A stretch of DNA of 60,522 nucleotides, filler included. It is 5 parts of 5 records of this genome, joined end to end, with 100 filler letters (N's around TTAATTAATTAA, not from the genome) between each part and the next. Parts side by side here need not be neighbours in the genome. Positions count along the whole stretch, not along the records: positions 53,585 to 60,522 come from SRR31156797_5655; 4 more parts are not named here. One strand, given 5' to 3'. The notes beneath the pieces were generated by a model. It saw only the letters and a list, made by a program, of their open reading frames with translations, was not told where the DNA came from and made no database searches. The position numbers were made by a program, and so were the translations under genes. Below are positions 7,571-60,522 of this stretch, one piece after another. Numbering within the stretch: the first letter of the stretch is position 1; the number at the start of each line of letters is the position of its first letter.

Positions 7571-7670
7571 NNNNNNNNNNNNNNNNNNNNNNNNNNNNNN
7601 NNNNNNNNNNNNNNTTAATTAATTAANNNNNNNNNNNNNNNNNNNNNNNNNNNNNNNNNNNNNNNNNNNN
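7571..7670. other. Artificial contig spacer
   Basis: N44-TTAATTAATTAA-N44 (stops in all six frames). Confidence 0.99.
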
Positions 7671-7744
7671 TGAGATCTGACCTTAACGGGTTAGCAGCCC
7701 CGAAGGGGATCGCAACCCTGAATAACTCATGTAACCACAGCATT

Positions 7745-8257
7745 TTACTCAACAGAAAATTTCTTCAAAATCTCATCCTCAATCTCAGATTTGATCTCCA
7801 CAACCTCACTGGTATTTTCGTTGGGGATCGTCATGGATAAAACATAATGCCTTATTTTCCATTCACCATTATCATACTTTTCGAGTACGCCAGACCCCCG
7901 GCAGATTTTCATCTGGGTATCCAGCAATTCATCAAACCAGGCTGTTTTTCCATCATCAGAAAAGTAAATATTCCTTTCAACCGCCTTAAAACTCCAGGTT
8001 TTTCCCCTGTCAAAATAGGGCCTTGCCCAAATCTTAAAGCTTTCGATATCCCAATTCTCGGTGGGATCTGTGCCAATAAAAACAGCGCTGTCGGCAAAAT
8101 AGCTGAAGTAGGCATTATAATTGGAATTTGCTGCAGCGGCATGCCAGTCATCCAGTATTTGGTTTATTACTTCGCTTTCCTGTTGTTTGTTGATTTTTGT
8201 GCAGGCGTTATTAAAGATAACAAAGCCAATCAAAAGCAATATCCATAATTGTTTCAT
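7745..8257 (-). CDS. NTF2/SnoaL-like family lipoprotein
   Basis: Probable start MKQLW at 8257; hydrophobic leader then Cys; FIGTDPTENW, WFDELL and CRGSGVL motifs. Confidence 0.8.
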   Translation of the reverse strand: MKQLWILLLIGFVIFNNACTKINKQQESEVINQILDDWHAAAANSNYNAYFSYFADSAVFIGTDPTENWDIESFKIWARPYFDRGKTWSFKAVERNIYFSDDGKTAWFDELLDTQMKICRGSGVLEKYDNGEWKIRHYVLSMTIPNENTSEVVEIKSEIEDEILKKFSVE

Positions 8258-8439
8258 TATTGATAATTTAGTACAGATGAAATTAAACCCTAAAATCAAA
8301 ATTAAGTGTTTTTGTGCGTAATATAAATTCATTACAAAGTGTTTTTTTTTTATCCAAACCACAAAAAGCCATCATCGTGAAATATCAGAACATGTGCTGT
8401 ATATTTTAGCTATTATTCTTAAATTCGTGGGAAAAAATC

Positions 8440-8736
8440 ATGAAAATCGAATACCGAAACTTGTATGTTCATTTCTTGGTTTCACGATCTCCTGATATGC
8501 ATGAAAATGAACTCATAACAATTATTGCAACCAGTTCAGAAAAGTTCATAAATGAGCATAAATTGTCAGTTGGGCAATTTGCATGGCAACAAACAGCGCC
8601 AGCTTTTTCAGTTTCTAAATCTGATGTCAACAAGGTTTGTCAGTATATTTTAAAACAACCAGATCATCATAAGAAAGTTACCTTTGAGGAAGAGTATCAG
8701 AAGTTTATGAGGATATTTCAGAATTTTGAAAAATGA
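8440..8736 (+). mobile_element. IS200/IS605-family (Y1 HUH) transposase, internally deleted
   Basis: FAWQ...AFSVS and YILKQPDHHKK (Y1 catalytic Tyr helix) are present; HUH position reads YVH; only 98 aa. Confidence 0.7.
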
Positions 8737-8747
8737 TAAATCTAAAA

Positions 8748-8909
8748 TAAGGTAAGGTTTACCGGGATTAACGAAAAAATATTTTCTATTAAGGTTTAAA
8801 AAAAGCAATAAGGTTTTGATTAGTTTCCAAGAGCAAATTTTTAAAACCTTATTTTTAAAACCAACCTTCATAGAAAAACAATGACTGTGAAAGGCCAAAC
8901 CTTACCTTA
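8748..8909. repeat. Nested long inverted repeat (REPIN/MITE-like)
   Basis: Perfect 13-bp IR 8748-8760/8897-8909; 15-bp IR with one mismatch 8782-8796/8863-8877; perfect 11-bp IR 8807-8817/8843-8853. Confidence 0.85.
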
Positions 8910-9186
8910 GGTCTTGATTCCCTGACTTCCAGATAAGGTATGGTTGATTTGCATTTGTGAATAAACTATCCCTTGCTGCTTAGCAATGTTTGTGTTGATA
9001 CCCTAAGTTTAAGTACACTAAAAACCAGGGGTATATATAAATATCTCATCAATCAATTGTTTTTTGAAAAGTACGCGAATTAACAAAAAGTATTCTGAAG
9101 AAAGTTTGCGAAATGCCCTGAGGGTTGCGTAAGATACGCCAGTCAAGGGCTTACTCAAAGTCAGCCATTGACTTCTGAAAATCCGG

Positions 9187-9236
9187 ATGACATCTCATGA
9201 CAACTCATGACATCTCCTGATTTGGATATGACATCC
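9187..9236 (+). promoter_or_regulatory. 10-bp-phased ATGACA direct repeats (putative activator site)
   Basis: ATGACATCTC, ATGACAACTC and ATGACATCTC at 9187/9197/9207, plus ATGACATCC at 9228; TAGTTTTG -7 box at 9254-9261. Confidence 0.6.
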
Positions 9237-9307
9237 TTCCATCCATCTCACTGTAGTTTTGCTGCATAATCGTTCACAAAATTGTTTAACCATAAAATTA
9301 CAGTAAA

Positions 9308-9673
9308 ATGAAAACTAAACTTTTTTTCTTCGTAATCGCACTTTTTGCAGCAAGTGCAATGTTCGCTCAAAGTACAACCCCCACAACTTCAGACTGCAGC
9401 AAAAAGTTTCTGAAAGAAATCAAAAAAAATATGAACATGATCAACGTGGTGGATTATGTGAAGGAAGACCACAGAATTTATGTAGTCCTGACGTGCGATG
9501 TTGATGAAAACAAAAATGTTGTTCCGGTAAAGGCTGAGGGTATTAATGAGAAGCTAAATGAGGCTGTGATCCAAAACCTTGAAGATCATCCAATAACATG
9601 TAGCAACCCTTCAACAGGAAAACCATTCACAATTCTGCTCAATTTCAAGCATATATCATGGGAAAGTTTGTGA
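9308..9673 (+). CDS. Small secreted hypothetical protein
   Basis: Signal peptide ending MFA-Q; promoter upstream; 121 aa. Confidence 0.7.
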   Translation: MKTKLFFFVIALFAASAMFAQSTTPTTSDCSKKFLKEIKKNMNMINVVDYVKEDHRIYVVLTCDVDENKNVVPVKAEGINEKLNEAVIQNLEDHPITCSNPSTGKPFTILLNFKHISWESL

Positions 9674-9766
9674 GCAGGCATTTAAAACCTGTCGGTTTCA
9701 GTTCCCGGTTTTGACTATTTTTGTCTTGCCGGGATTTCTTTATTAATAACGGCTTTATACATTTTT

Positions 9767-10825
9767 ATGATCAGAAATAGAATAAACTTGCTTCAAACTT
9801 GCCAATGGGTTGTTTTATTTTGTTGTCTGCTCATTTTCCCGGATTCTGTCGGTGCACAGGACCTGGAAAGGGTTGTAGATTTACAGGGTACCTGGAAATT
9901 TTCTGTCGGCGACAATCACGACTGGTCTTCTGATACCTATGATGATAAGGATTGGGATTACATTTCTGTTCCGGCATCATGGGAAAGTAACGGTTTTGAT
10001 GATTATAACGGGTATGCATGGTACAGAAAGCATTTCAACGTCTCAGGTCTGGATGATGACAAAAACTATTTCCTTTTACCTGGTTTTATTGATGATGTGG
10101 ATGAAGTATATTTGAATGGCGAGTTGATTGGGAAATCCGGGATCATGCCGCCACGTGTGGTCACGGCCCATGAAACCTACCGGCAATATTATATCCCTGA
10201 AGGATTACTCAGGAGTAATCAGGAAAACCTGATTGCTGTTCGGGTTTATGACGATTTTCAGCGAGGAGGGATATATGGCGGCCCTGTTGGCGTTTATTAC
10301 AACCGCGAGGATGAGTTACTGGACATAAACCTCGCCGGGTACTGGGAATTTGAAGATTTTAAAAAGCCAGTTGATTCGATTAAAAGAATTTTTGTTCCGG
10401 GATACTGGGAAAACCAGGGTTATCCTGATCTGGACGGGTCAGCTACTTACAAGCGAACTTTCAACATTCCTGCAAAAACAAATGTAGATGAACTCATGCT
10501 TGTTATGGGTTACATCGATGATTTGGACAAGGTGTTTATTAACGGCGTTAGGGTTGGAGCCAAGGAATATCATGAAAACAATTATAAAGATGTCAGGCAC
10601 ATGGATCAAATTTTCAGAGGATATGAAATTCCGCCAGGGGCACTTAAATCGGACTCCGAAAATATCATTGAGGTCAGGGTTGTTGACAAAGGTGGCCTTG
10701 GGGGAATTTACAAGGGGCCGGTTGGGTTGGTAACCAAAGTCAACTATCAAAGGTTACTTGAAAATCATTCCAACAGTATCAATTTATTTGAAGAGTTCCT
10801 GAAAAGCATTTTCGAATGGGATTAA
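9767..10825 (+). CDS. Secreted protein with two beta-galactosidase-type jelly-roll domains
   Basis: Two repeats of L.G.W.F...VP..WE..G....G.A.Y...G.IDD.D.V..NG...VRV.D....GGI..G. Confidence 0.8.
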   Translation: MIRNRINLLQTCQWVVLFCCLLIFPDSVGAQDLERVVDLQGTWKFSVGDNHDWSSDTYDDKDWDYISVPASWESNGFDDYNGYAWYRKHFNVSGLDDDKNYFLLPGFIDDVDEVYLNGELIGKSGIMPPRVVTAHETYRQYYIPEGLLRSNQENLIAVRVYDDFQRGGIYGGPVGVYYNREDELLDINLAGYWEFEDFKKPVDSIKRIFVPGYWENQGYPDLDGSATYKRTFNIPAKTNVDELMLVMGYIDDLDKVFINGVRVGAKEYHENNYKDVRHMDQIFRGYEIPPGALKSDSENIIEVRVVDKGGLGGIYKGPVGLVTKVNYQRLLENHSNSINLFEEFLKSIFEWD

Positions 10826-36464: not shown

Positions 36465-36564
36465 NNNNNNNNNNNNNNNNNNNNNNNNNNNNNNNNNNNN
36501 NNNNNNNNTTAATTAATTAANNNNNNNNNNNNNNNNNNNNNNNNNNNNNNNNNNNNNNNNNNNN
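36465..36564. other. Artificial contig spacer
   Basis: N44-TTAATTAATTAA-N44. Confidence 0.99.
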
Positions 36565-42928: not shown

Positions 42929-43028
42929 NNNNNNNNNNNNNNNNNNNNNNNNNNNNNNNNNNNNNNNNNNNNTTAATTAATTAANNNNNNNNNNNNNNNN
43001 NNNNNNNNNNNNNNNNNNNNNNNNNNNN
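42929..43028. other. Artificial contig spacer
   Basis: N44-TTAATTAATTAA-N44. Confidence 0.99.
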
Positions 43029-44515
43029 TTTCCGCCATCGATGAAGCCGATGACGTTACCGACCAACTGGCGCATCTTCTTCGACTGGTCAGCCAGCTCA
43101 CTTGCTGCACTGGCTGATTCTTCGGTTGAGGCAGCAGTGTTCTGAACCGAGCGGTCCAGCGTTGAGATAGCATCGTTGATCTGGCTGACGCCTTGTGCCT
43201 GCTCGTTGCCAGCCACGGCAATCTGGCCGATGAGTTCGTTGACCTGAGTATTCGACTCTCGGATTCCGTCGAGGTACTGGGCGACATCATTGACGATTTC
43301 GACGCCGCTTTGAGAATTGCGGACTGATTCCTCGATCATCTCACTGGTACCACGAGCCGCTTCAGCACTTCGCTGGGCAAGAGCGCGAACTTCTTCAGCA
43401 ACCACGGCAAAGCCTTTACCCGCTTCACCTGCACGTGCAGCTTCAACAGCGGCGTTCAGAGCCAGCAGGTTGGTCTGGAAGGCGATTTCATCAATGACCT
43501 TGATGATCTTCGCGGTTTCGTCGGATGAGTTCTGAATCTTGTTGATGGCATCGGTCATGCGAGTCATGGCTTCGGCGCCAGCCTGGACGGCCTGGTCAGC
43601 ATCAGATGCAGACTTACGTGCCTGCTCGGCATTTGACGCATTCTGCTGGGTCATGCCGGACATTTCTTCCAGGGAGCTTCCGGCCTCTTCCAGGCCTGCT
43701 GCCTGATCCGCAGCGACTTGGGCAAGCTGGTCGGAGTTCTGCGCCATCTGATCGGAGGCGGTCGACACCTGGTCGATACTCTCAGCCATCTGCGTGGACA
43801 ATGTCTTGATCGGACGAATGATCCCCCTGACAATCCACATGGAGACTGCAATACCCAGGATCGCCATTAAGCCGAAGCCCGCCAGTTTGTACGCCATGTA
43901 CGCTTTCTGATCGTGTGCGACGGTTGCCACCAGGGCTGCTTTTTCTTCTTCGACGTTGTCGATGTAGACCCCGCAGCCGATCATGATGTCGGTACCCGGA
44001 ATCAGGGCTGCATAGCTCAGCTTCGGCTGAAGACCCTTACCAGGCTTCTCCCAGTGGTATCCCACGTACCCGCCGCCAGCCTGTGCGGCCGCGACGAGAT
44101 CCTTGATGACGTAGACGCCTTTCTTATCCTGGAATTTGGAATAGTCGGCACCATTCTTCGATTTGTTCGGAGGATTGTTCACACGGATGCAGTTGGAATC
44201 ATACGTGAACACGTACCCCGACTTGTCATCAAAGAACCGAAGAGGATCCGTGTATTCAACAATGATCTTCTTCTTTTCTTCCAGATCGGTAACTCCTTCG
44301 AGCTCTTTGTTCAAGAGACCGATCGCCAGTTCGACAGACGTCTTGAGCGTCTGCTTACTGCCGTCCAGGATCGCTTCGCCGAACTTCGGATAGATGACTT
44401 CATCGGTTACCTTGCTATCCAGGTAAACATTGAAGAATTGCAGTCCGCCAGCAAAGACGATCATCAGGCAAGGAATGACGAGAATCTTTCCGCGTACTCC
44501 CAATTTCTTAAACAT
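43029..44515 (-). CDS. Methyl-accepting chemotaxis protein with sCache_2 sensor (last codons cut at the contig end)
   Basis: TM-Cache (GYVF, YHWEKP, KLSY, GCGVY)-[23 protein letters not shown]. Confidence 0.95.
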
Positions 44516-44885: not shown

Positions 44886-46379
44886 TTACTTCTTTCCACC
44901 CTGAATGAACTGTGCCACATTTCCAATCAGATCACGAATCTTTCCTGACTGGTCTGCGAGTTCACAGGCGGCACTGGCCGATTCCTCTGTTGAGGCTGCG
45001 GTGCTCTGCACGGAACGGTCCAACGTAACGATCGCCTGGTTGATCTGTGATACGCCCTGCGCCTGTTCGTTACCGGCTACTGCGATCTGACTGATCAATT
45101 CATTCACCTGTGAGTTCGAATCACGAATACCACCCAGATACCGTGCGACATCATTCACGATATCCACACCATTCTTTGAGTTGGTCACCGATTCTTCGAT
45201 CATCTCGCTGGTTCCACGAGCTGCTTCAGCACTACGCTGAGCCAGTGCACGGACTTCCTCTGCAACAACGGCAAATCCTTTTCCAGCTTCGCCTGCGCGA
45301 GCTGCTTCGACAGCCGCATTGAGTGCGAGCAGGTTCGTCTGGAATGCGATTTCGTCAATCACTTTAATGATCTTCGCGGTCTCGTCTGAGGATTGCTGTA
45401 TTTTATTGATCGCCTCTGTCATGCGACTCATTGCCTCTTCACCGGCATGAACCGCCTGATCTGCTTCCTGTGCGGAAACTCGAGCCTGTTCAGCGTTTTC
45501 AGCACTCTGCTGGGTCATGCTGGACATTTCTTCCAGGGAACTTCCAGCTTCCTGAAGTCCAGCCGCCTGGTCCGATGCCACCTGTGCAAGCTGATCGGAA
45601 TTCATGGCCATCTGATCCGAAGCGGTCGCGACCTGGTCGATGCTCTGCTGCATTTCGGAGGTCATTCTCACGATCGGCCTGATGATGCCGGATACGATCC
45701 AGAGAGAAAAGGCGATGCCGACGATGGCAAGCAGGCCGAATCCAGCCGCTTTGTATTTCAAGTAACGATTGCGATCCTTCGTTGCCGCAACGATCATCGC
45801 ATTTTTTTCATCTTCCACGTTATCGATATACACGCCGCACCCGATCATGATTTCTGTACCGGGTATTGTCGAAGCGTAACTCATTTTGGGTTGAACGCCC
45901 TTGCCAGGCTTTTCCCAGTAATATTCGACAAATCCTCCGCCGTTCTGAGCAGCCGTAATCAGATCCTTGATCAGGTAGTTGCCTTTTTTATCCTGGAATT
46001 TCAGATAATTAGAACCATTTTTTGATTTATTCGGCGGGTTATTGATGCGTGTCCCGTCGTATGCGTAGGTGAATACGTATCCTGATTTGTCATCAAAGAA
46101 TCGAAGCGGATCCGTGTACTCAACGATGATCTTCTTTTTTTCTTCCGGATCGGTGACCCCTTCCAGTTCCTTGTTCAAAAGACCGATCGCCAGCTCGACA
46201 GACGTCTTGAGCGTCTGCTTGCTGCCATCGAGAATCGCCTCTCCGAACTTCGGATATACGACGTCCTCGGTCACCTTGTTATCCAGATACACATTGAAAA
46301 ACTGAAGACCACCGGCAAAGACGAGCATCAGACACGGAATGACCAGAATCTTTCCCCGTACCCCGAATTTCCTGAACAT
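44886..46379 (-). CDS. Paralogous sCache_2 methyl-accepting chemotaxis protein
   Basis: Collinear with MCP1 from [10 protein letters not shown] (start 46379, AAGGGAG RBS). Confidence 0.95.
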
Positions 46380-46617
46380 GGTTAACTCCCTTTCTAGAAA
46401 TTCCAGAACCCAAACTACGGTACTTGCCCCATACTTCTGCCTAGGGTATCGACCCGATTCAGGACCCAATTCACTATTCGTTCAGTTGTTTTGCCCGTAA
46501 GTACTCATAACCAAAGTCATCAATTGTCACTTAACAGAGAATACAGATTTCCAGCCTCCAATCGCATTCTTGTTTCACAAGCGACCGAAACTATCGGACG
46601 TTGGATGTTCCCAGCAT

Positions 46618-51768: not shown

Positions 51769-52972
51769 GATTTACCTCGACATTCCTGCCAGACAGTATG
51801 GCTACCTGTAATTCGTAAGGATCCAAATCCGCAAACCGACAGTCGCGCAAGAAATCTCCAAATGCGTTCGCTTCCAGCACCCAGTGTTTGCGTCCACATG
51901 AGCTGATCGCAAGATCAACAGCAACATGAAGACTGCGGCTGAACAAGCTGCCCACACATCTGCATGTTTGAAGCACAGCATTCCAGTTTTCTTCGTCGAC
52001 CCGATGCCGAACACTTTCAAAGCCTGCCCTGCGATTCCCGAGGTGCAGATTGGTAATGGCTGTATCACTCAAGCGGACGACCGTATGGGCGGGCTGCCCG
52101 GAAACGATCAGGATTCGCAGATCGAATCGTTTGTCTCCGGTTCCCGCCTTGGGTACCCATCGCTCGACTTGAACACCCTGCAGGCATAATGCATCGATGA
52201 TCGCTGCAACTTCGATATGATCCCGAATGCGGCGAATGCGGCGGGAGTTGAAGAGCTGGAGCGAGCCGCTGACAACTTCCGCCTCCACCGTCGTCCATGC
52301 CTGGATTCGGCCGCGACTGGTTTCCAAAGCAACAATCCCGGATGCCGCTGAACCATGTCGTAGTTTTACGAATACACGAAAACAACGACGCTGTTTCATC
52401 AAGGAGATCAGCTCTTCAAAGCAGCCGGGTTGTCCAAGGCTCAGTGGAACGGGAATGCCCGCTGACGCCAGGCGTTTGTGGCAGACAACCTTGTCGAACA
52501 ATGTGCGGATGTCATCCGGATGGCTGGTGAAACATGCTCCGTCCCCTCCTCCGCATGCTTGCTCGACATCGTTGAGGACTTCGCAGAAGCCGTGATACCA
52601 CTGACGCGTATTGAGGATAATTCCCTTCCGATGGCTGAGTTGATCCACAGCAATGGGAGAAACGCCTGCCCCGCTTTCGGCCGATACCCGGGGATAGCCA
52701 CGCTTGAGAATTCCCCGGAGAATATCCATCGAGCGTCCCGGACTCTCGATGCGTATCAGCGATCCCGGCTCTACCCGGGTTTTCAGCATCGCAGGTTCCG
52801 CCAGGAGTTCCAGGTATGAAATCACCTCTGGTTCCGGAAGTCCAAACGCCTTGGACGCCTTGCGATAGAATCCAGTCCTTGGATCATCAGGATCCGCAAT
52901 CAAAGCGAGAGGAGTATCCGGGCAGCAGCCCCAGGCACTACTCTGAAACCGCGATATACCGGAATGATTCAC
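51746..52972 (-). CDS. STM4014-family ATP-grasp-like protein (start uncertain)
   Basis: IRIESPG, FDK, FVKLRHGSAASG, VERWVPK, FDLRI, ITNLHLG and LEANAFGD motifs. Confidence 0.82.
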   Translation of the reverse strand: MNHSGISRFQSSAWGCCPDTPLALIADPDDPRTGFYRKASKAFGLPEPEVISYLELLAEPAMLKTRVEPGSLIRIESPGRSMDILRGILKRGYPRVSAESGAGVSPIAVDQLSHRKGIILNTRQWYHGFCEVLNDVEQACGGGDGACFTSHPDDIRTLFDKVVCHKRLASAGIPVPLSLGQPGCFEELISLMKQRRCFRVFVKLRHGSAASGIVALETSRGRIQAWTTVEAEVVSGSLQLFNSRRIRRIRDHIEVAAIIDALCLQGVQVERWVPKAGTGDKRFDLRILIVSGQPAHTVVRLSDTAITNLHLGNRRAGFESVRHRVDEENWNAVLQTCRCVGSLFSRSLHVAVDLAISSCGRKHWVLEANAFGDFLRDCRFADLDPYELQVAILSGRNVEVNLVQGCVV

Positions 52973-53484
52973 CGTCGTACTCATCAGGTTGTTCCTGCCC
53001 ACTCAAGTCAACGTCTATTCCAAGATTCCGCATGTTCTCAAGCATTGGATCCGTCATGAAATGATGATGAAGATCCAGCCTGGTCAGATTGGGAATCCGC
53101 GATGAAGCCAACAGTGCCTCGGCCCCCTCATCCCCAAGGTTCCCCAGAGACAGGTCGAGTTCCTTGATGCGATCGAGTATCGGTGCATCTGCAACAACCT
53201 TCGCAACGGCATCGGCTTCGCAACTGTTCCGCAAGCCGAGAACCTTCAGGTTCGGAAAAAGGGTCCCGGAAAGAATTGGTTGTAGATCATCGACCGAACT
53301 TTCCCACCCGTAACCATCATCACCCAGCCATAACTCGAGATGCTCAAGCTGCGGCAGATCCGCCTCGCAGACTTCCTTCAGTACATTGGCAGGTAGTCCG
53401 CCCGTTTCGATAATCAGTGTTTTCAAACGATCGGACTTCAGGGTTCCCAGCGAAAGATTCTCCATACCCCGAACGCGAAACATT
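52938..53484 (-). CDS. STM4015-family LRR protein (5'-truncated)
   Basis: LEHLELWLG, FPNLKVLGLRN, LDLSLGNL and LDLHHHF repeats; terminal RYIAVSE. Confidence 0.85.
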
Positions 53485-53584
53485 NNNNNNNNNNNNNNNN
53501 NNNNNNNNNNNNNNNNNNNNNNNNNNNNTTAATTAATTAANNNNNNNNNNNNNNNNNNNNNNNNNNNNNNNNNNNNNNNNNNNN
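53485..53584. other. Artificial contig spacer
   Basis: N44-TTAATTAATTAA-N44. Confidence 0.99.
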
Positions 53585-55465
53585 GCAGCGGGATGGCCGG
53601 ATTTCAAAAACAGCAAAACCATTCTTGTCTGGGGTCATAATCCCAAAGCCACGATGAATGCGTTCAACTGGCAGATAAAAGCCGCACGGAAGAATGGGGC
53701 CAGGGTCATTGTGGTTGATCCCCGGTTGACGGATTCTGCCGCCAGGGCGGATATCTGGCTCCAGGTCAAACCGGGGACCGACGGAGCCCTGGCCCTGGGC
53801 ATGATTCATCTTATGCTGAAGCATGAACGCTATGATGACGGCTTTGTACGAAACTGGACCAATGCCCCTTTACTGGTAAGAAACGATACCGGAGATTTGC
53901 TCCGGGGCCCCCTGGGTGAGTCTTCCGGGGAGAACCGGGATATGCTCTACGTGGTGAATGGGGTGAGCAAAACGCCTGTCCCCTGGACACCCGGATCAAA
54001 ATTGGATTGCGTCCCCTGCCTAGAGTGGAGCGGGGAGATTAAACTGGCCGACAAAAAGCGTGTTGGATGTAAAACGGTATTTTCACTGCTCAAAGAAGCG
54101 GTGGCAAGGTATACGCCTGAATTTGTCCGGGCCCATACATCCGTTTCCGGCGAGCTTCTGGAAAAAACGGTCCGCATGATGGCGGATAACGGACCATCAT
54201 GCTGGTTTTCATTTAACGGTGTGGAACAAAACCTGAATGCCACCCAGACCAACCGGGCTTTATGTACGTTTTACGCACTTACCGGGGACTATGACAAAAA
54301 AGGCGGCAATGCGGTTCATTCCCCTGTCCCCCCCCTGGCCTTTCCTTTTGGTTTTGAGTTTGTAACGCCGGAAATGTTCCAAAAAAATATTGCCTTATCC
54401 GCCCATCCGTTAGGACCGGCCGGGACGATTATGTCCGTTCCCCACTACCTGATATGCAAGGCCATTGAAGAGGCGAACCCCTATCCGGTAAAAGGACTCA
54501 TCGTGTTTGGGGCAAACACGGTTTCAGCCCATCCGGACAGCAGAATGACGGCAAACGCGTTTAAGAAACTGGAGTTTCACGTTCATATTGACCTCACCCT
54601 TAATCCCACTGCGGCATTGGCCGATATTGTCCTGCCGTCAACAACTTTCTGGGAGACAGGCCGTATCGGATATCCCCTTGAATTTCAGGAAAATAAATGG
54701 GTATTGCAGTGGCGTGAACCCGCGGCCGCGCCACGGGGTGAAAGCAAAGACGAGTTGTGGATCATTCTCGAGCTTGCCAAACGCCTGGGGGTCTCTGAAA
54801 AATTCTGGGGCGGAAACCTTGATACCGCGTTTGAAAGCATGTTGGAACCACTAAACATCAAGCTGGAAGATTTAAAAAGCGCTGACGGCGGAATCTTTAT
54901 CCAAAGGCCCTTTGAGTATCAAAAATACAAGAAGAACGGCTTCGGGAATATGTCCGGCCGTGTGGAACTGTTCTCCCAGCTTTTAAAGGATATCGGGCAG
55001 GCCCCCATTCCGGAATGGAAAAACCCCTATGAGATTTTCCGTAAGGCCGGAATCGATACATCCGAATATCCGTTTATTCTTATCAATTCAAAACTGCGCG
55101 GGTTTTGCCAGTCCCAGCACAGGGCCATCCCATCCCTGAGGAAACAACATCCCCATCCGTTTTTGGAAATCAATCGAAAAAAGGCAAAAGAGATGGGCAT
55201 CGTCCAGGGAGAGCCCGTCATTCTGGAAACCGTGCATGGCAACATAACGCTGGCGGCCCGGCTGAGCGACGGTATTGCCCCGGATGTCGTCTGCACCCAG
55301 CACGGGTGGTGGGAGGCCTGCCCGGAACTGGGCCTGCCCGGCCATGACATTTACTCATCCAAGGGCCCGAATGTAAACCTTTTGTACAAGAACGATTTTG
55401 TGGATCCCATCAGCGGCTCCGTTCATATGCGGGGATTTCCCTGCAATATCAAAAGACATGGATGA
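53585..55465 (+). CDS. Molybdopterin (bis-MGD) oxidoreductase catalytic subunit (5'-truncated)
   Basis: Frame open from the contig edge (DFKNSKTILVWGHNP); VVDPR, PGTDGALA and ADIVLP motifs; C-terminal dinucleotide-binding domain. Confidence 0.9.
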   Translation, partial: AAGWPDFKNSKTILVWGHNPKATMNAFNWQIKAARKNGARVIVVDPRLTDSAARADIWLQVKPGTDGALALGMIHLMLKHERYDDGFVRNWTNAPLLVRNDTGDLLRGPLGESSGENRDMLYVVNGVSKTPVPWTPGSKLDCVPCLEWSGEIKLADKKRVGCKTVFSLLKEAVARYTPEFVRAHTSVSGELLEKTVRMMADNGPSCWFSFNGVEQNLNATQTNRALCTFYALTGDYDKKGGNAVHSPVPPLAFPFGFEFVTPEMFQKNIALSAHPLGPAGTIMSVPHYLICKAIEEANPYPVKGLIVFGANTVSAHPDSRMTANAFKKLEFHVHIDLTLNPTAALADIVLPSTTFWETGRIGYPLEFQENKWVLQWREPAAAPRGESKDELWIILELAKRLGVSEKFWGGNLDTAFESMLEPLNIKLEDLKSADGGIFIQRPFEYQKYKKNGFGNMSGRVELFSQLLKDIGQAPIPEWKNPYEIFRKAGIDTSEYPFILINSKLRGFCQSQHRAIPSLRKQHPHPFLEINRKKAKEMGIVQGEPVILETVHGNITLAARLSDGIAPDVVCTQHGWWEACPELGLPGHDIYSSKGPNVNLLYKNDFVDPISGSVHMRGFPCNIKRHG

Positions 55466-55490
55466 TTGTCGTTATTATGATGGGGGGGCG

Positions 55491-56519
55491 CTACTTCTCA
55501 TATCTTTTAATCAAGCTGCATGGGGTATACTCGATTTCCATGTCGCGTCTTTCTCCCTTGAACGCCAGTAGTCCACCCTTTGAAATAAGACTGGATTTGA
55601 TAATAAGTTTCCTGAGGGATTGAAAATGTCTGAGTTCCATCAATCCGGCATCGGTTACCCAGGTGCTCGACAGGTGAAGTTCTCTGAGCTTTTTGAGCTT
55701 CCGGAGATATGGGAAGCCCACACCGGTAACCATGTTGTTGTTCAAGGACAGGGAACGAAGATCTCCCAGTCCCGCCAAAAAACGGAAACCATCGTCCGTC
55801 ACCATCGTCTGGGAGAGGTTCAACCGCTCAAGCCGGGACAGGTTTTCAAGATACCCTGTCCCTTCGTCGGTGATGGCGGTCCTCGCCAGTTTAAGGGAAC
55901 GGATATCGGGAAATGCCTTTAGCACCTTCAAATCCGGATCTTCCATGCCGGTGTTGGACAGTTGAAGTTCCTGGATCGGAATGCCGGTATCCAGGAACTT
56001 CAGGTCGCTGCCCGTGATTTTCGTACTGTTCAATAATAACCTGTTGAGTGAATGAAATCCCTTGATTCCGGCAAGCCCCTTGGCGGTGATATCCGAATTC
56101 GAAAGGCTTAGCGTCTTCATCGATGTAAGGTTTTTTATAAAAACCAATAGGGAGTCCGTGTTCTTCATGTGCGTAAACCGCAATTCCTGAATATCGTTGG
56201 GCCGAAGGCATGCGAGTCCTTCCAGCCCCCTGCCGGACGTACTTTTTGCGCCGGAATTGAGTAATACATCGTATCCCCGGGGGATCTCCACGATCCCCCG
56301 GGCAGTGTAATCGCCTCCTGACCAAGGCTCGGAATCGTTTGCCGTTGATTGCCTAATTCGAAGGGTTCCCAAATTATGGCCGCAGGGAAAGTGGATTTCT
56401 TTTTTCCCTGGGAGTATCCTGCCGGATACTGCGGACGCGACCGCTCCGGATCGGGACATAAGGAAGAATGGCGCAGACAGAATGGATATGATGGCTTTCC
56501 GCCGGCTAAGGTTTACCAT
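55491..56519 (-). CDS. Leucine-rich-repeat protein with twin-arginine signal
   Basis: MVNLSRRKAIISIL...AVASA; about 9 LxxLxLxxTxITDxG 24-aa repeats; AGGAG before ATG 56519. Confidence 0.85.
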   Translation of the reverse strand: MVNLSRRKAIISILSAPFFLMSRSGAVASAVSGRILPGKKEIHFPCGHNLGTLRIRQSTANDSEPWSGGDYTARGIVEIPRGYDVLLNSGAKSTSGRGLEGLACLRPNDIQELRFTHMKNTDSLLVFIKNLTSMKTLSLSNSDITAKGLAGIKGFHSLNRLLLNSTKITGSDLKFLDTGIPIQELQLSNTGMEDPDLKVLKAFPDIRSLKLARTAITDEGTGYLENLSRLERLNLSQTMVTDDGFRFLAGLGDLRSLSLNNNMVTGVGFPYLRKLKKLRELHLSSTWVTDAGLMELRHFQSLRKLIIKSSLISKGGLLAFKGERRDMEIEYTPCSLIKRYEK

Positions 56520-56585
56520 GAAGGGACTCCTCATTTATACGGTCTGTTTATTAAGTGTTCAAACTCAGTTTGCGGCAGTCCGGTT

Positions 56586-59500
56586 CTATCCGGATTCCGG
56601 CGGCTGTGGCGCCTGGCCGGTTCTGCGTTCGAGAGCAATATTTATCTTTACGATCGCCTGGCGCGCCATTTTGCGAACCTTCCTGTTTTCATGCCGGGTA
56701 CAGGCCTCCAGCCGTCCCAGCCCCTCTTTTGCCTCTGGGCCAATGGAACCGAGTGCCCTTATGACAGCTTTTCGTGCCGCCATATCCCCCCGGTCATAAA
56801 ACTTTAAAAGCGAAGGAATAGCTGGGGCGGCATTTTCTTTCAATGACGCAATGACACTGACAATGTCCGTTCCCATATCCTTGTCCCCGGCTTCAAGGAC
56901 CTGTACCAAAGGCCGGAGCGCCGAGGGAGGCAGCGGCGTCACCTTGATCGCCCTTAACGCCTCGATTCTAACCATGCGCTCCCCATCGAACAGGGCGTCC
57001 AGAAGCAAATTGACCGGAAGGTCGATCTGCTTCCTGTAGTATTTCAGGAGTTTAACAGACAGCCACCGGTTGTACCATGATGCATCCTTGATCGTTTCCC
57101 AAAGGGGCTGCTCGAACACATTGGCAATGGTCTGAAGCGATATCACTTTCGAGAGCGCTTCCATGTCCAAATCCTTTATCCAGAACCGCTGGATGCCGTT
57201 TTCCCCGGCAAGCATTTTTGATATGGAGAACAACCTTTCCAAACCAATGCGGCGAACTACCGGCCGGGGACTCTTCAGGTCTGCGAGCAGCCCCTCCGTC
57301 ACGCTAGTGTATAAGGCGGCAAGCGCCCTTTTTTCCTTCCGGCGTTCGGCTTCCTTCTCACGAAGTTCGGCTTCCTTTTCCCACGTTCCACTCAAGATCT
57401 GCCGCCAGGCCTTCGCCGCTGGGAATTGTTTGTTCCCGATCTCGCCGGCCTGGAAGACAATGGCGTTCACGGCCGCGCCCCCGGCGGAAGGTTCAGTTTC
57501 AGACGAACGGCCGTAGGGCAAAAGGTTCGCCTGCCAGTCAAGGGGCGCACTCTCTGAAGGGATTGCCGTGTCGGCGTCAACCCTGTAGCTCCCCTTGGCC
57601 ATGTTAAACCATACGCGCCCACCGGAACTCTGAATGTCGCTGACGGAATTCCTGCCGAAGTCGAACACGCTCAACGCATCCCCATCGATGCGAACTGCCA
57701 CACAAGAAGAATAGTTTTCCTTTTTAACACGCATCCATATTGATCCGCCGGCCCCATGGAGGCTTTCAACCCGGACGTTTTCCGCCGGTAAAATTTCGAC
57801 ACCCGAATTCCGGATATGATATGCGGGGCCGGCATGCCCCTCCTCCGTGCGGGTCGAGAACCAAACCTGGTTTCCGAAGCCGTAGATCTCTGAAACCAAG
57901 GCCTCCCTGGTCGGATAAGGAACGGTGCCACCGTCTTCCAGACGGTAGGCCGGGCCGGCGATGTCCCTGTATCCGTCGGCAGAGCGGGAAACGGTCTTCA
58001 TCCAGGTTTTTCCACCGATATCCGTAATGTCCCACGCCAGATCGCCGGGTGCCGGAAACAGCTCAGCCTTGTTATCCCGGATCCTGAAGAGAAGGTCGCG
58101 GTTCAAACCGTCGACCAGAAACCACAGGGCGTCCCCATGCTTTTCGAACCGGCCGCCCGGCAAATCACACCCTTCTATTTTAATGAATCGATCCCCCTCC
58201 TGGATGTACCCACCATGGTTTGTCGATAGGTACGCCCGGCCATCTATTTCCTGCACTTGTTTGACGATGATTTCATGGTCGAGGGCCGGAACGGCGTGAT
58301 AGCCTCCCGAACACCGGTAAAGAGGGCCGTTGGAGGCAAATAATTCATTGTCTTCCCGGGTTAAAAACCAAACGTGCCCGCCCGCTTTCTTAATTTCAAC
58401 GACATTCATGTACCCTGAGATTCTAACCGCTTTATCCTGCTCGACCCGGAAGGCGCCATCCTCTGTGGCCAGCCACAAGCGTTCGTCGATTTCGAAAATA
58501 TCGTTGACCCGTAAATCAGGGGGCGTCAACCGGGTGTAAGTCTCTCCCTCTGCGCAGTAAGCGCCATATTCCGTGGCCAGCCATGCTTTGTTTCCTTTCA
58601 GAAGGATGCGGTACACATTGGTATCTTTCGAAGGAAAGGGGATACAACGTTTCCCTATAATCCGGTAGGCCCTCCCGGACCCCAGGAACCCGCGTCTGAA
58701 TAACCAGAACTGGCCGGGTCCCTGCACGATTTCCGTGGTATTGAATCCAATGTCCGTTTCGCCGTCCGGATAGGGAATGGCGGTGCCGTTTTCAATGCGG
58801 TAGGCAGGGGGGCACGCCCCCGGTCGGACCAACCACTTTTCTCCGTCCACCAGCAGCTCTTTCCAGTCTTTGAATTCCCCGGGCTTGAGGGTGATCCCGG
58901 TTTCCGGATAGCGGACAGCGGGGGGAGAGAACAAAGTGCAGGGGAGACCCCTCAAGGCCACCCAGTCGATCTGGCTGTTCCTCTCAATGGTATCCACGTG
59001 AGTGGCATCGGTTTTCCAGACATTCACGGTCTGATCGTCAGAAATGGTCAGGAGGTGTTCATGATCTTTTGAAAAGCTCCCATAATGGACGAACTGGTTG
59101 CCATGTTTGAGTGTCTTGACATTGACGGGGCCCGTATCTAAAGCCTGCCAGAGTTGGACGCGCCCTTTTTCGCCCATGGTGAGAAAATATGGATTCCTCA
59201 GGGCGTGTGAAAAAACGGCATTGGACACTCCCCCGGAGGAGAGTTCCTTTGCAACGAGCTCCTCGCTTTCATCGAGGGTCAAAAAGAAGGCCTTGCCCGA
59301 TTCCAGAACGACAACGGCATATTTGCCGGAGGCATCTGTAACCGACCGGATAAGGGGATCGCCGGCCCATTCGCCCATGAAAGTGAGGGATTTTCCGGTT
59401 TTCGGGGCCACCAGCCATACGCCGCCGGTGCCGTCCCCTCCGATGATATAATCACCCAAATATCCTGCCACCGTATGTACCGGAGCCTTTGTAAAACGGC

Positions 59501-60521
59501 TGAAACGAAACTCCCCCCGGCATGATCCGTCCAGGCCGTATACTTCCAGATTGAATTGGCGTACGATGAAAATTTCTTTTCCGGAAGTGCTGAACACGCC
59601 GGTCTCTAATCGCCTCGAGGCCCTTCCGGAACAGCCGTTCAACTCAATTGTCTCCAGGGATTCGTTGTTCAGCAAATAGGCTTTCCCCGGGACGGAACTC
59701 CCATCTTTGGACCGCCTTGTTAGGGAAAGGGCATATTTCCCGTCCGGACTGAGCTTGCTGTATAAACCCAACCGGCGGAATCTGGGGGCAAGGTAAGCGG
59801 CTCCTTTCCCGGAAAGTTCCATTTCAATTTTATTGTTTTCCTTGTGAAGAATAAGCGTTTTGTAGGCGCTTCGCAAGGCCAGTTCCGCGCTTTCCGACTG
59901 CTGTCGGCGTACCGCGTCCGCGCTTGTCAACGGACAGAGCCGTTTGGCTTCCAGGGCATCGAAAAAGGATTGAGCCGGGTTACGGTAGACATTTTCAAAA
60001 GCGGTTGCGATCATCCGCTGAAATCTCGCCTGAATTCCAGCTTGCCTGTCCCGCCGGGAGGCGACCACAGAGTACACGGTAAGGGAGACAAGTAAGAGAA
60101 TTACGGAAAGAACGGTCATTACGAGCTTCTTCGTTTTTCCCATCTGAGCAACCTCTTCGCTGATTATATTATCCCTCGATTTTCCATGGAGGGTCGCTGC
60201 GAAGGTGGCCACCTCCTCCTTGAACCCACTATTCTTATTTGACAGATCCTTTTCCGAACGGAATTTTCGCAGATCGACATATTTGGGCGCCGCGCAATAC
60301 TGGCCTTTGAAGACTTCCGGAAGAGCGCTTGTCGTTTGCCAATCGAAATCTTCCGCTTCCCCCGGCGAAATATCTGAGGAACCTGCGCTATCCGGCCAAT
60401 GGATTCGACCATCCGTCAAAACCAGGATCAAATTCTCCTTAGACCGGTTTTTTAACCAATACTCCGTTTCCTTCCGGACCCATTTGGAATCAGCAGCCTC
60501 GGGAGAAGCCAGTAAAATGAA
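56586..60521 (-). CDS. TIR domain-TM-WD40/beta-propeller-HEAT repeat protein (5'-truncated)
   Basis: Frame open to the window end: FILLASPEAADSKWVRKETEYWL (TIR betaC-alphaC); one TM; WD-like LLTISDDQTVNVW; C-terminal HEAT repeats (ARKAVIRALGSIG). Confidence 0.82.
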   Translation of the reverse strand, partial: FILLASPEAADSKWVRKETEYWLKNRSKENLILVLTDGRIHWPDSAGSSDISPGEAEDFDWQTTSALPEVFKGQYCAAPKYVDLRKFRSEKDLSNKNSGFKEEVATFAATLHGKSRDNIISEEVAQMGKTKKLVMTVLSVILLLVSLTVYSVVASRRDRQAGIQARFQRMIATAFENVYRNPAQSFFDALEAKRLCPLTSADAVRRQQSESAELALRSAYKTLILHKENNKIEMELSGKGAAYLAPRFRRLGLYSKLSPDGKYALSLTRRSKDGSSVPGKAYLLNNESLETIELNGCSGRASRRLETGVFSTSGKEIFIVRQFNLEVYGLDGSCRGEFRFSRFTKAPVHTVAGYLGDYIIGGDGTGGVWLVAPKTGKSLTFMGEWAGDPLIRSVTDASGKYAVVVLESGKAFFLTLDESEELVAKELSSGGVSNAVFSHALRNPYFLTMGEKGRVQLWQALDTGPVNVKTLKHGNQFVHYGSFSKDHEHLLTISDDQTVNVWKTDATHVDTIERNSQIDWVALRGLPCTLFSPPAVRYPETGITLKPGEFKDWKELLVDGEKWLVRPGACPPAYRIENGTAIPYPDGETDIGFNTTEIVQGPGQFWLFRRGFLGSGRAYRIIGKRCIPFPSKDTNVYRILLKGNKAWLATEYGAYCAEGETYTRLTPPDLRVNDIFEIDERLWLATEDGAFRVEQDKAVRISGYMNVVEIKKAGGHVWFLTREDNELFASNGPLYRCSGGYHAVPALDHEIIVKQVQEIDGRAYLSTNHGGYIQEGDRFIKIEGCDLPGGRFEKHGDALWFLVDGLNRDLLFRIRDNKAELFPAPGDLAWDITDIGGKTWMKTVSRSADGYRDIAGPAYRLEDGGTVPYPTREALVSEIYGFGNQVWFSTRTEEGHAGPAYHIRNSGVEILPAENVRVESLHGAGGSIWMRVKKENYSSCVAVRIDGDALSVFDFGRNSVSDIQSSGGRVWFNMAKGSYRVDADTAIPSESAPLDWQANLLPYGRSSETEPSAGGAAVNAIVFQAGEIGNKQFPAAKAWRQILSGTWEKEAELREKEAERRKEKRALAALYTSVTEGLLADLKSPRPVVRRIGLERLFSISKMLAGENGIQRFWIKDLDMEALSKVISLQTIANVFEQPLWETIKDASWYNRWLSVKLLKYYRKQIDLPVNLLLDALFDGERMVRIEALRAIKVTPLPPSALRPLVQVLEAGDKDMGTDIVSVIASLKENAAPAIPSLLKFYDRGDMAARKAVIRALGSIGPEAKEGLGRLEACTRHENRKVRKMARQAIVKINIALERRTGQAPQPPESG

Positions 60522-60522
60522 A

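What the first reader, a model, noticed from the sequence alone, without database searches (positions are those of the whole stretch)
56586..60522. Hidden TIR domain on a membrane-anchored propeller-HEAT protein (receptor-like architecture)
Seen: the ORF track starts at 60431, but the frame stays open to the window end and reads FILLASPEAADSKWVRKETEYWL. This places the conserved TIR W-x-x-x-E glutamate at 60468-60470. It is followed by one TM helix, WD40-like blades, a second propeller and HEAT repeats. Known: this Glu is the catalytic residue of NAD+-cleaving TIR domains (SARM1, ThsB, plant TIRs). Inference: a cytoplasmic TIR enzyme controlled by a large extracytoplasmic sensor, i.e. a bacterial Toll-like receptor analogue for defence or cell-contact signalling.
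Basis: partly seen in the sequence, partly recalled or inferred. Interest (0 to 1): 0.75.

Follow-up and report, generated by a model that had tools for sequence, protein, structure and literature searches.

The report
Membrane TIR protein with outside propellers
A bacterial gene, cut off at the edge of the window, encodes a single-pass membrane protein with an immune-type TIR enzyme domain inside the cell and large propeller and HEAT-repeat domains predicted outside; it belongs to a large, untested family laid out like a Toll-type receptor.

Summary
The minus-strand frame 56586-60521 is open to the window end (1311 aa). [quoted passage not shown] There is exactly one strongly hydrophobic helix (res 133-155). 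After it come a helical stalk, a 7-bladed WD40-type propeller, an 11-blade Reg_prop-like repeat domain, a charged helix and HEAT repeats.

About 66-100 N-terminal residues of the TIR lie outside the window. A public run holds an identical contig that continues 8.3 kb past the window end.

The gene is a divergent member of a large, apparently undescribed bacterial TIR-TM-propeller family, which this scan has already flagged on other DNA. In relatives the cytoplasmic head is swapped (TIR, nSTAND1 NTPase, possibly a hydrolase), and positive-inside statistics put the head in the cytoplasm. This supports a receptor-like sensor-effector.

NADase activity, the ligand and a defence role remain inferred. 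Five relatives lack the membrane helix. The HEAT tail and the exported LRR neighbour are specific to this locus. The window is a concatenation of contigs; only 53585-60522 is real context (Desulfobacteraceae-like).

The parts
56586..60522 (-). Gene for the TIR-TM-propeller-HEAT protein. 1311 codons are visible plus the TAG stop at 56586-56588. The 5' end lies beyond the window.
   Evidence: An identical public contig runs 8,278 nt past base 60522.
60168..60521 (-). C-terminal half of the TIR domain (res 1-118: betaC strand FILLASP, alphaC helix with W14-x-x-x-E18, then the family's conserved TIR extension up to the basic stretch before the TM).
60468..60470 (-). Codon of Glu18, in the column of the conserved (catalytic-type) TIR glutamate.
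   Evidence: Invariant in 7 of 7 sequences. Glu is in this column in 21 of 26 subfamily relatives. It aligns to the SEWCxYE motif of solved TLR TIR domains.
60057..60125 (-). Single transmembrane helix (res 133-155, LVMTVLSVILLLVSLTVYSVVAS), flanked by KTKK and RRDR.
59820..60056 (-). Stalk helix continuous with the TM helix, plus a small helical bundle (res 156-234).
   Evidence: pLDDT 85-96. This segment is conserved in the subfamily.
58863..59762 (-). Propeller 1, a 7-bladed WD40-type fold (res 254-553).
   Evidence: Z 19.7 to 5naf_A, 259 aligned, rmsd 3.7; Z 18.1 to bacterial PkwA 5yzv_B. Pfam gives only weak WD40-family hits.
57537..58862 (-). Domain 2: 11 repeats of 34-47 aa (motif V..I...G.vWl.T..G.yR), each a four-stranded blade (res 554-995). 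The blades are Reg_prop-like. Whether they form one ring or two is undetermined.
   Evidence: pLDDT 88.2, pTM 0.83
57276..57536 (-). Low-confidence linker and a long charged helix (res 996-1082, EKEAELREKEAERRKEKRA).
56619..57161 (-). HEAT-repeat tail (res 1121-1301).
   Evidence: HEAT_2 E 7.8e-10; helical repeats, pLDDT 65-72. Found in 1 of 27 aligned family members, namely this protein only.
55491..56534 (-). Downstream same-strand gene for an exported LRR protein. The likely start is the second ATG at 56519, 7 nt after GAGGAG. The N-terminus MVNLSRRKAIISILSAPFFLMSRSGAVASA looks like a Tat/Sec signal. A functional link to the TIR gene is possible but unproven.
   Evidence: No terminator-like or promoter-like site lies in the gap. 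No LRR neighbour in 3 of 3 related loci examined.

Best explanation
The gene encodes a type II (N-in, C-out) single-pass inner-membrane protein that works as a one-protein sensor-effector.

Layout: the N-terminal TIR domain faces the cytoplasm. A stalk helix carries a large ectodomain into the periplasm: a 7-bladed WD40-type propeller, an 11-blade Reg_prop-like domain and a HEAT tail.

Proposed mechanism (inferred): a periplasmic or surface cue binds the ectodomain and clusters the receptors. Clustering brings the TIR domains together into the oligomer that TIR enzymes need for activity. The TIR then cleaves NAD+, with the conserved Glu18 as catalytic residue, and this causes growth arrest or death of the cell. 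No conserved partner gene is needed.

Shown here: the domain order, the conserved glutamate, the single hydrophobic helix, family membership and the folds. Inferred: topology (strong), NADase activity (moderate), activation by clustering and a conflict/defence role (weak to moderate).
For: TIR identity:
- 45% identity to TIR_2-positive relatives over the visible half.
- A family profile hits solved TIR domains: TLR6 E 0.0014, TLR1 0.0017, plant L6 0.0023, SARM1 0.084. 15 of the first 16 rows are TIR-bearing proteins.
- Glu conserved in 7 of 7 sequences and in 21 of 26 (P0001 and P0092 look like one protein, so 20 of 25).

Topology:
- One helix with KD 2.39; no second helix (next best 1.06).
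- 64 of 67 broad-family relatives have a TM in the first 700 residues. N-flank K+R exceeds C-flank K+R in 49, is lower in 3 and ties in 12. In the close subfamily 32 of 47 have a TM, with 20/4/8.
- The head domains are cofactor-dependent cytoplasmic enzymes: TIR, and nSTAND1 NTPase in P0068 (E 2.6e-46), which is followed by a TM and the same propellers.
- Foldseek's top 10 for domain 2 are all extracytoplasmic sensor or surface propellers: BT4673, BT4663, PorZ (E 5e-12 to 9e-10).

Modular head swapping is typical of sensor-effector conflict proteins.

Stand-alone: no conserved neighbour in 3 related loci, and no hit to a known defence-system model other than weak ThsB-type TIR hits in relatives.

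Precedent in print: periplasm-facing sensors are predicted in conflict systems that carry nSTAND1, NACHT or TIR domains (PMC10907252, passages read). TIR cleaves NAD+ (PMC7159879, passages read).
Against: - The first roughly 66-100 residues of the TIR (box 1, BB loop) are not in the window, so an intact active site cannot be checked. The fragment alone is below Pfam thresholds.
- The C-flank of the helix is also basic (RRDR), so positive-inside is not decisive for this protein alone.
- 5 of 21 TIR-bearing relatives (P0079, P0083, P0085, P0087, P0094) lack the helix. The same sensor module can therefore sit in the cytoplasm.
- The structural matches for domain 2 are only local (TM-score 0.22-0.30; best VIA Z 11.4).
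- There is no defence island around the gene. The real context is only 6.9 kb and the related loci hold mostly metabolic genes.
- No activity, ligand or phenotype data exist.
Confidence: 0.45

Rival explanations
1. Thoeris-like signal producer. The membrane TIR does not deplete NAD+. On ectodomain activation it makes a nucleotide signal (a cADPR isomer or similar) that switches on a separate effector encoded elsewhere, possibly upstream beyond the window.
For: The best Pfam and PADLOC matches of the TIR in this protein and its relatives are ThsB-type. A 2025 preprint reports 29 putative Thoeris types with many different effectors (10.64898/2025.12.03.692087, passages read). The 8.3 kb upstream of the gene is unseen.
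Against: No candidate effector was found next to the gene in 3 related loci. The visible downstream gene is an exported LRR protein, not a known signal-binding effector. That preprint holds 0 occurrences of WD40, propeller or periplasm.
Confidence: 0.2
2. Tether-and-release model. The membrane anchor and ectodomain keep the TIR from self-assembling. Envelope damage or proteolysis of the stalk frees the TIR, which then oligomerises and kills the cell. The ectodomain acts as a guardee of envelope integrity rather than a ligand receptor.
For: In an amoeba TIR protein of bacterial origin, removing the N-terminal TM helix caused toxicity (PMC13142454, passages read). The stalk or coiled coil after the helix varies greatly in length among relatives. 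Soluble TM-less relatives exist.
Against: A 1150-residue conserved ectodomain with two propeller domains is far more than a tether needs. No protease gene is linked.
Confidence: 0.1
3. Non-enzymatic TIR. The TIR is a protein-protein adaptor, and the protein is a surface adhesion, scaffold or signalling receptor unrelated to NAD+ cleavage.
For: The family profile's best solved matches are the TIR domains of TLR1, 6 and 10, which keep the same Glu. The ectodomain is built of interaction modules (WD40, HEAT) and has an LRR neighbour.
Against: The Glu is conserved in 21 of 26 relatives. In relatives the head is swapped for enzymes (nSTAND1 NTPase; possibly an alpha/beta hydrolase, Abhydrolase_6 E 0.0056-0.035, below threshold). 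From recall, not from a call: most bacterial TIR domains tested in vitro cleave NAD+.
Confidence: 0.1
4. Not a receptor. The hydrophobic helix does not span the membrane, or is only a peripheral anchor, and the whole protein is cytoplasmic like ordinary TIR-WD40 sensors.
For: 5 TM-less relatives carry the same sensor module. Propeller 1 resembles the cytoplasmic eukaryote-type WD40 fold and PkwA. HEAT repeats are mostly cytoplasmic (recall).
Against: There are 23 uncharged residues with KD 2.39, modelled as one continuous helix. A helix sits at the same place in 64 of 67 and 32 of 47 relatives, with a positive-inside bias. The blades of domain 2 resemble periplasmic sensor propellers.
Confidence: 0.07

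Closest known systems
Unnamed bacterial TIR-TM-WD40/propeller family (database entries named 'TIR domain-containing protein' or 'WD40 repeat protein', e.g. from Saccharopolyspora and Dactylosporangium; closest full-length relative P0001, 960 aa)
   Same: N-terminal TIR with the same alphaC motif, a conserved TIR extension, one TM helix at about residue 190-240, a stalk, then propellers. 27% identity to P0001 over 907 columns (E 5e-67). 67 relatives found with the N-terminal part. 47 cluster representatives at E<=1e-30 with the propeller part.
   Different: This protein adds a HEAT tail (1 of 27) and has an LRR neighbour (0 of 3 related loci). It is no closer than 33% identity to anything found. 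I found no paper on the family.
Animal Toll-like receptors (TLR1/2/6/10)
   Same: Single-pass membrane protein with a repeat-built ectodomain outside and a TIR inside. The family TIR profile's best solved hits are TLR6 and TLR1 (E 0.0014-0.0017).
   Different: The order is reversed: here TIR-TM-ectodomain (type II), in TLRs ectodomain-TM-TIR (type I). The ectodomain is propellers plus HEAT, not LRR. TLR TIRs act as adaptors, whereas here an enzymatic role is expected. The likeness is convergent layout, not orthology.
Cytoplasmic bacterial and plant TIR sensor-effectors (TIR-NBD-WD40/TPR/LRR; Thoeris ThsB)
   Same: An N-terminal TIR joined to superstructure-forming repeats. [quoted passage not shown] ThsB-type HMM hits appear.
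   Different: There is no NTPase between the TIR and the repeats, and a membrane helix puts the repeats on the other side of the membrane. No ThsA-type effector is seen.
Periplasmic sensor domains of Bacteroides hybrid two-component systems (BT4663, BT4673, BT3049) and PorZ
   Same: Domain 2 has Reg_prop-like blades. These are Foldseek's top 10 hits for domain 2 (E 5e-12 to 9e-10, 11-14% identity). All are extracytoplasmic ligand sensors or surface proteins.
   Different: The global fit is poor (TM-score 0.22-0.30; VIA Z 9.6-9.7 with rmsd 16-18). There are 11 blades instead of 2 x 7. There is no Pfam Reg_prop hit on this protein at E<=1. The output is a TIR, not a histidine kinase.
Conflict-system sensors with periplasm-facing domains in multicellular bacteria (DGR-diversified STAND/nSTAND1 proteins; PMC10907252, passages read)
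   Same: The idea of a cytoplasmic NTPase or effector joined through TM segments to a sensor placed in the periplasm. Relative P0068 is nSTAND1-TM-propellers.
   Different: Those sensors are C-type lectin domains diversified by retroelements. No DGR or lectin domain is seen here.

Membership tests
TIR domain (Pfam TIR_2 PF13676 / ThsB_TIR PF08937) | HMM score at or above the curated threshold | tested here: inconclusive
   The fragment scores 12.7 bits (threshold 28) and 14.5 bits (threshold 21.2), but only profile positions 54-99/122 and 63-96/100 lie inside the window. Relatives that are 44-45% identical over that same stretch carry TIR_2/ThsB_TIR annotation. P0001, P0018 and P0033 pass the TIR_2 threshold.
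TIR domain (Pfam TIR_2 PF13676 / ThsB_TIR PF08937) | Conserved glutamate in the alphaC helix (W-x-x-x-E), the catalytic residue of NAD+-cleaving TIRs (role recalled) | tested here: met
   W14 and E18 are invariant in 7 of 7 sequences. Glu is present in 21 of 26 subfamily relatives. It aligns to SEWCxYE of solved TLR TIRs.
TIR domain (Pfam TIR_2 PF13676 / ThsB_TIR PF08937) | Box 1 (F-I-S-Y strand betaA) and the BB loop | not testable with these tools
   These lie upstream of base 60522. Relatives have FISYS about 55-60 residues before FILLASP. The missing DNA exists in a public contig but no tool returned its letters.
TIR domain (Pfam TIR_2 PF13676 / ThsB_TIR PF08937) | NAD+ hydrolase or cyclase activity | not testable with these tools
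   Needs a biochemical assay.
Bacterial TIR-TM-propeller family (unnamed) | TIR, then one TM helix, then a stalk and beta-propeller(s) in one polypeptide | tested here: met
Animal Toll-like receptors | N-terminal LRR ectodomain, TM helix, C-terminal TIR (type I orientation) | tested here: not met
   The order is TIR-TM-propellers-HEAT. There is no LRR in this protein. An LRR is found only in the separate downstream gene.
Thoeris (ThsB plus effector) | A TIR gene adjacent to a signal-activated effector gene | tested here: inconclusive
   No effector lies downstream or in 3 related loci. The upstream side is outside the window.
WD40 repeat propeller (PF00400 and related) | Sequence match at threshold; 7-bladed propeller fold | tested here: inconclusive
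   Sequence: WD40 scores 13.8 bits against 27, and the other WD40-family models are far below their thresholds. Fold: Z 18-20, about 255 residues aligned, rmsd 3.2-4.2 to 7-bladed WD40 propellers.
HEAT repeats (PF13646 HEAT_2) | HMM score at or above the threshold | tested here: met
   39.3 bits against 27.7, E 7.8e-10, res 1203-1290. Helical repeats appear in the model.
Reg_prop two-component-regulator propeller (PF07494) | HMM match; tandem 7-bladed propellers | tested here: inconclusive
   There is no Reg_prop row at E<=1 for this protein. 1 of 27 aligned relatives hits it at 1.1e-4. Structural hits to BT4673, BT4663 and PorZ rank top but with TM-score 0.22-0.30.

The most novel reading that the evidence does not exclude
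A bacterial outside-in immune or recognition pathway built like Toll signalling. The exported LRR protein encoded 51-66 nt downstream would act as a soluble co-receptor that captures an extracellular ligand (phage, predator or kin surface molecule). It would dock on the lineage-specific HEAT tail or the propellers of the membrane protein. This would cluster the receptors and switch on the cytoplasmic TIR NADase. The result would be an LRR-plus-TIR receptor system split over two genes in a Desulfobacteraceae-like bacterium.
Probability: 0.12. Interest if true: 0.85.

Novelty: new variant of a known kind. Interest (0 to 1): 0.55.

Why it matters
Known bacterial TIR systems sense infection inside the cell. 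A family that places a large repeat-built sensor outside the membrane and a TIR enzyme inside would extend TIR immunity, or TIR signalling, to extracytoplasmic cues. It would also be a convergent counterpart of Toll-like receptors.

The family is large and easy to test: topology fusions, an NADase assay of the cytoplasmic domain with a Glu mutant, and phage or predator challenge in a laboratory host. This copy is a less convenient representative because its 5' end is outside the window. It does add two unusual features, a HEAT tail and an exported LRR neighbour.

Tried and rejected
- No whole genome is held for the window, so the gene could not be extended that way.
- The search for related loci in metagenome contigs with the protein gave one weak locus only (L005, 38% identity over 48 residues, from 110 candidate stretches).
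A smaller 8-sequence alignment gave 4 loci from 189 candidates.
- No near-identical full-length protein appeared in the protein collections. The best hits were 32-33% identical.
- The look-up of sequencing runs listed no RNA holder, so nothing can be said about expression or co-transcription.
- Read laying showed that an identical 13,423-nt contig runs 8,278 nt beyond the window end, but it gives no letters.
- Complex prediction (HEAT tail with the mature LRR protein) was not available and nothing was folded. LRR binding is therefore untested.
- PADLOC: only a HEAT-ARM model hit (E 1.3e-5) for this protein, and weak ThsB hits for relatives. NCBIfam: no hit for this protein, P0001, P0069 or P0082.
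- Pairwise comparison of the LRR neighbour with the LRR-bearing ORF 52938-53483 gave no real similarity (E 0.01). That ORF is an STM4015-family protein on another contig.
- No solved propeller covers domain 2 as a whole (best VIA Z 11.4, rmsd 9.7, 237 aligned). The number of rings stays open because model coordinates are not readable in the script box.
- The assignment of an alpha/beta-hydrolase head in P0081 and P0082 rests on sub-threshold Pfam hits (E 0.0056-0.035) and on a lipase-like AHSFG motif that I recognise from recall.
- Earlier-scan look-ups by place and by sequence returned nothing for this genome.

Full report
WHAT IS IN THE SEQUENCE

On the minus strand a frame runs from the window's last bases to a TAG at 56588-56586. 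The ORF list shows a TTG-started version (56586..60431, 1281 aa) and the same frame open at its 5' end (56586..60521, 1311 aa). The open part reads FILLASPEAADSKWVRKETEYWL.

The window is not one molecule. Four linkers of 44 N + TTAATTAATTAA + 44 N lie at 7571-7670, 36465-36564, 42929-43028 and 53485-53584. They show that it is a chain of contigs, so the true context of the gene is only 53585-60522. This stretch holds:
- a molybdopterin oxidoreductase cut at the contig start (603 aa; relatives have about 795; the best hit is 90% identical and named as a Desulfobacteraceae MAG);
- an LRR gene;
- the TIR gene.

G+C is 36-45% in the first two pieces and 49-55% in the last three, and the gene content differs between them. 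The assembly bin may therefore be mixed.

IS THE N-TERMINUS A TIR DOMAIN?

On the fragment alone Pfam is weak: ThsB_TIR E 0.047 and TIR_2 E 0.18, matching only the second half of the profiles. The answer comes from relatives.

A search with residues 1-420 found 67 proteins (E<=0.001, of 7994 candidates scored). Many are annotated by their sources as TIR domain-containing or WD40 repeat proteins.

The first 125 residues align to residues 67-180 of P0002 (45% identity, E 3e-34) and of P0027 (44%, E 2e-30). P0001, P0018 and P0033 pass the TIR_2 threshold.

In the alignment, I2 S6 P7 A10 S12 W14 V15 E18 are invariant in 7 of 7 sequences. The relatives carry 66-100 further N-terminal residues, including the F-I-S-Y box.

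A profile of these N-termini finds solved TIR domains: TLR6 at E 0.0014, TLR1 at 0.0017, flax L6 at 0.0023 and SARM1 at 0.084. Of the first 16 rows, 15 are TIR-bearing proteins. The W-x-x-x-E stretch lies on the SEWCxYE motif.

So the window holds the C-terminal half of a genuine TIR domain with the glutamate in place. The first half is outside the window and cannot be judged.

THE REST OF THE PROTEIN

There is one strongly hydrophobic segment (res 135-153, Kyte-Doolittle 2.39; 23 uncharged residues 133-155). The next best segment scores 1.06.

An AlphaFold model of residues 112-1311, built on a 54-row alignment (mean pLDDT 78.5, pTM 0.70), shows in order:
- the membrane helix, continuing into a stalk helix and a small helical bundle (res 129-234);
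- a first propeller (254-553);
- a second all-beta domain (554-995);
- a low-confidence linker and a long charged helix (996-1082);
- helical repeats (1121-1301, pLDDT 65-72) that match HEAT_2 (E 7.8e-10).

Propeller 1 aligns to 7-bladed WD40 propellers. Z is 19.7 to TBLR1 (5naf_A; 259 residues aligned, rmsd 3.7) and 18.1 to the bacterial PkwA WD40 domain (5yzv_B).

Domain 2 consists of 11 repeats of 34-47 residues, each a four-stranded blade (domain model pLDDT 88.2, pTM 0.83). Foldseek's first ten hits for it are all extracytoplasmic bacterial propeller sensors or surface proteins: BT4673, BT4663 and PorZ (E 5e-12 to 9e-10). The TM-scores are only 0.22-0.30. An exhaustive structural search gives at best Z 11.4. 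The blades are therefore Reg_prop-like, but the overall arrangement (one 11-blade ring or two rings) has no close solved counterpart and remains open.

THE FAMILY

A full HMMER search with residues 225-1040 found 2615 proteins at E<=0.001, 408 at E<=1e-10 and 47 at E<=1e-30. The best are 29-33% identical and share both propeller domains.

I aligned 26 of these with the window protein:
- 21 have the TIR alphaC motif with Glu in the E18 column. P0001 and P0092 look like the same protein, so this is 20 of 25 independent sequences.
- 1 (P0068) has an nSTAND1 NTPase (E 2.6e-46) followed by a TM helix and the same propellers.
- 4 have another head. For two of them I scanned further and found sub-threshold alpha/beta-hydrolase hits (E 0.0056 and 0.035).

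A hydrophobic helix with KD>=1.6 sits at the aligned position in 16 of the 26. The four non-TIR heads carry a hydrophobic segment just upstream of that position. Five TIR-bearing relatives (P0079, P0083, P0085, P0087, P0094) have none.

HEAT_2 is found only in the window protein (1 of 27).

In GTDB representative genomes a pattern scan found 4 loci from 189 candidate stretches: a Thiodiazotropha MAG, Variovorax sp., an Ectothiorhodospiraceae MAG and a gammaproteobacterial MAG, all at 26-27% identity. In the three loci with flanks, the neighbours are not conserved and none is an LRR protein. In Variovorax the gene follows Tc-toxin-like genes and lies near a CHAT protease gene.

TOPOLOGY

Among the 67 broad-family relatives, 64 have a helix with KD>=1.6 in the first 700 residues. 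The 15-residue N-flank has more K+R than the C-flank in 49, fewer in 3 and the same in 12 (sums 287 against 198). In the 47 close relatives, 32 have such a helix, with 20, 4 and 8.

The head domains need cytoplasmic cofactors: NAD+ for TIR and ATP for nSTAND1. Relatives have no signal peptide ahead of the TIR.

Together with the single helix, this places the head inside and the 1150-residue C-terminal part outside. For this protein alone the flanks (KTKK and RRDR) are not decisive. The five TM-less relatives show that the sensor module can also work in the cytoplasm. I note that as unexplained.

THE NEIGHBOUR

The LRR gene (55491-56534, same strand) starts 51 nt after the stop, or 66 nt if the second ATG is used. 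The second ATG is preceded by GAGGAG at a 7-nt distance. No terminator-like or promoter-like site lies in the gap.

Its N-terminus (SRRKAI, a hydrophobic stretch, then AVA-SA) looks like a Tat/Sec signal. That reading is from motif recall; the hydrophobicity is. It has LRR_4, LRR_6 and LRR_8 hits.

A link with the lineage-specific HEAT tail is an attractive idea.

MECHANISM

Best reading (0.45): a stand-alone type II membrane sensor-effector. A cue binds the ectodomain and clusters the receptors. The TIR domains oligomerise and cleave NAD+, and growth stops.

Rivals:
- a Thoeris-like signal producer with an unseen effector (0.2);
- a tether-and-release guard of envelope integrity (0.1). An amoeba TIR protein became toxic when its TM helix was removed (PMC13142454, passages read);
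- a non-enzymatic adaptor or adhesion receptor (0.1);
- a wholly cytoplasmic protein whose helix does not span the membrane (0.07).

COMPARISON WITH WHAT IS KNOWN

In layout the protein works like a Toll-like receptor, but it is not one. The domain order is reversed and the ectodomain is not LRR.

It belongs to the TIR superfamily and to an unnamed TIR-TM-propeller family. PADLOC and NCBIfam have no model for that family.

Five literature searches found no paper describing bacterial TIR-TM-propeller proteins. The passages I read covered:
- TIR-NBD-WD40/TPR/LRR architectures (PMC9153377);
- bacterial TIR groups with diverse architectures (PMC7075850);
- TIR as an NAD+-cleaving effector in conflict systems (PMC7159879; PMC8195603);
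- periplasm-facing sensors in nSTAND1, NACHT and TIR conflict systems (PMC10907252);
- 29 putative Thoeris types, with no occurrence of WD40, propeller or periplasm (10.64898/2025.12.03.692087).

I read passages only, not whole papers or supplements. A mention in a supplement or in a journal not held in the library cannot be excluded.

This scan has already flagged the same kind of protein on other DNA in at least eight notes. The family-level idea is therefore not new to the scan. I treat those notes as leads, not as evidence.

VERDICT

I class it as a new variant of a known kind: a TIR sensor-effector with the sensor placed across the membrane. This copy is truncated by the window and divergent, with a unique HEAT tail and an LRR neighbour. 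Interest 0.55.

Noticed in passing
window 7571-7670, 36465-36564, 42929-43028, 53485-53584: Each site is 44 N + TTAATTAATTAA + 44 N, so the window is a chain of at least five contigs joined by six-frame-stop linkers. Gene neighbourhoods across these points are not real.
   Followed up: yes
window 1-36464 versus 36565-60522: G+C is 36-45% in the first two pieces and 49-55% in the last three. The first two pieces hold DUF5916/CBM9, sortilin/BNR and GH2-like genes, ribosomal proteins and EF-G. The last three hold BcrAD/BadFG, Cache-MCPs, acetate kinase and a Desulfobacteraceae-like Mo-oxidoreductase. The bin may mix two organisms.
   Followed up: partly
window 53654-55465 (+): A molybdopterin oxidoreductase cut at the contig start. 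603 aa match from profile position 130 on; relatives are about 795 aa. The best hit is 90% identical and named as a Desulfobacteraceae MAG. One source names relatives 'anaerobic selenocysteine-containing dehydrogenase'.
   Followed up: partly
window 52938-53483 (-): An STM4015-family protein (NCBIfam E 4.3e-68, profile positions 104-290 of 290) running into the contig end, with one LRR_6 hit. It is unrelated to the LRR gene next to the TIR gene.
   Followed up: partly
L002 1-16960 (Variovorax sp. J22P240): The relative of the TIR-TM-propeller gene (7626-10433) directly follows a TcA-like gene and a 1982-aa SpvB/TcdB_midN/RHS gene, with overlapping ORF ends. A CHAT protease gene lies downstream on the other strand. 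This is a conflict-type neighbourhood not seen in L001 or L004.
   Followed up: partly
protein P0068 (1407 aa) and P0075, P0081, P0082, P0088: The same TM-stalk-propeller module carries other cytoplasmic heads. P0068 has an nSTAND1 NTPase (E 2.6e-46). The four others share a different head with a lipase-like AHSFG motif; of the two I scanned further (P0081, P0082), both gave only sub-threshold Abhydrolase_6 hits.
   Followed up: partly
proteins P0079, P0083, P0085, P0087, P0094: These TIR-bearing relatives have both propeller domains but no hydrophobic helix or coiled coil between the TIR and the helical bundle. They are soluble versions of the same architecture.
   Followed up: partly
beyond window base 60522: A 13,423-nt contig in public run X1 is identical over 55400-60522 and continues 8,278 nt past the window end. 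The missing 5' end and the upstream genes therefore exist in public data.
   Followed up: partly
window 42977-44515 and 44886-46469 (-): Two neighbouring methyl-accepting chemotaxis genes with sCache_2 sensor domains, on another contig of the chain.
   Followed up: no
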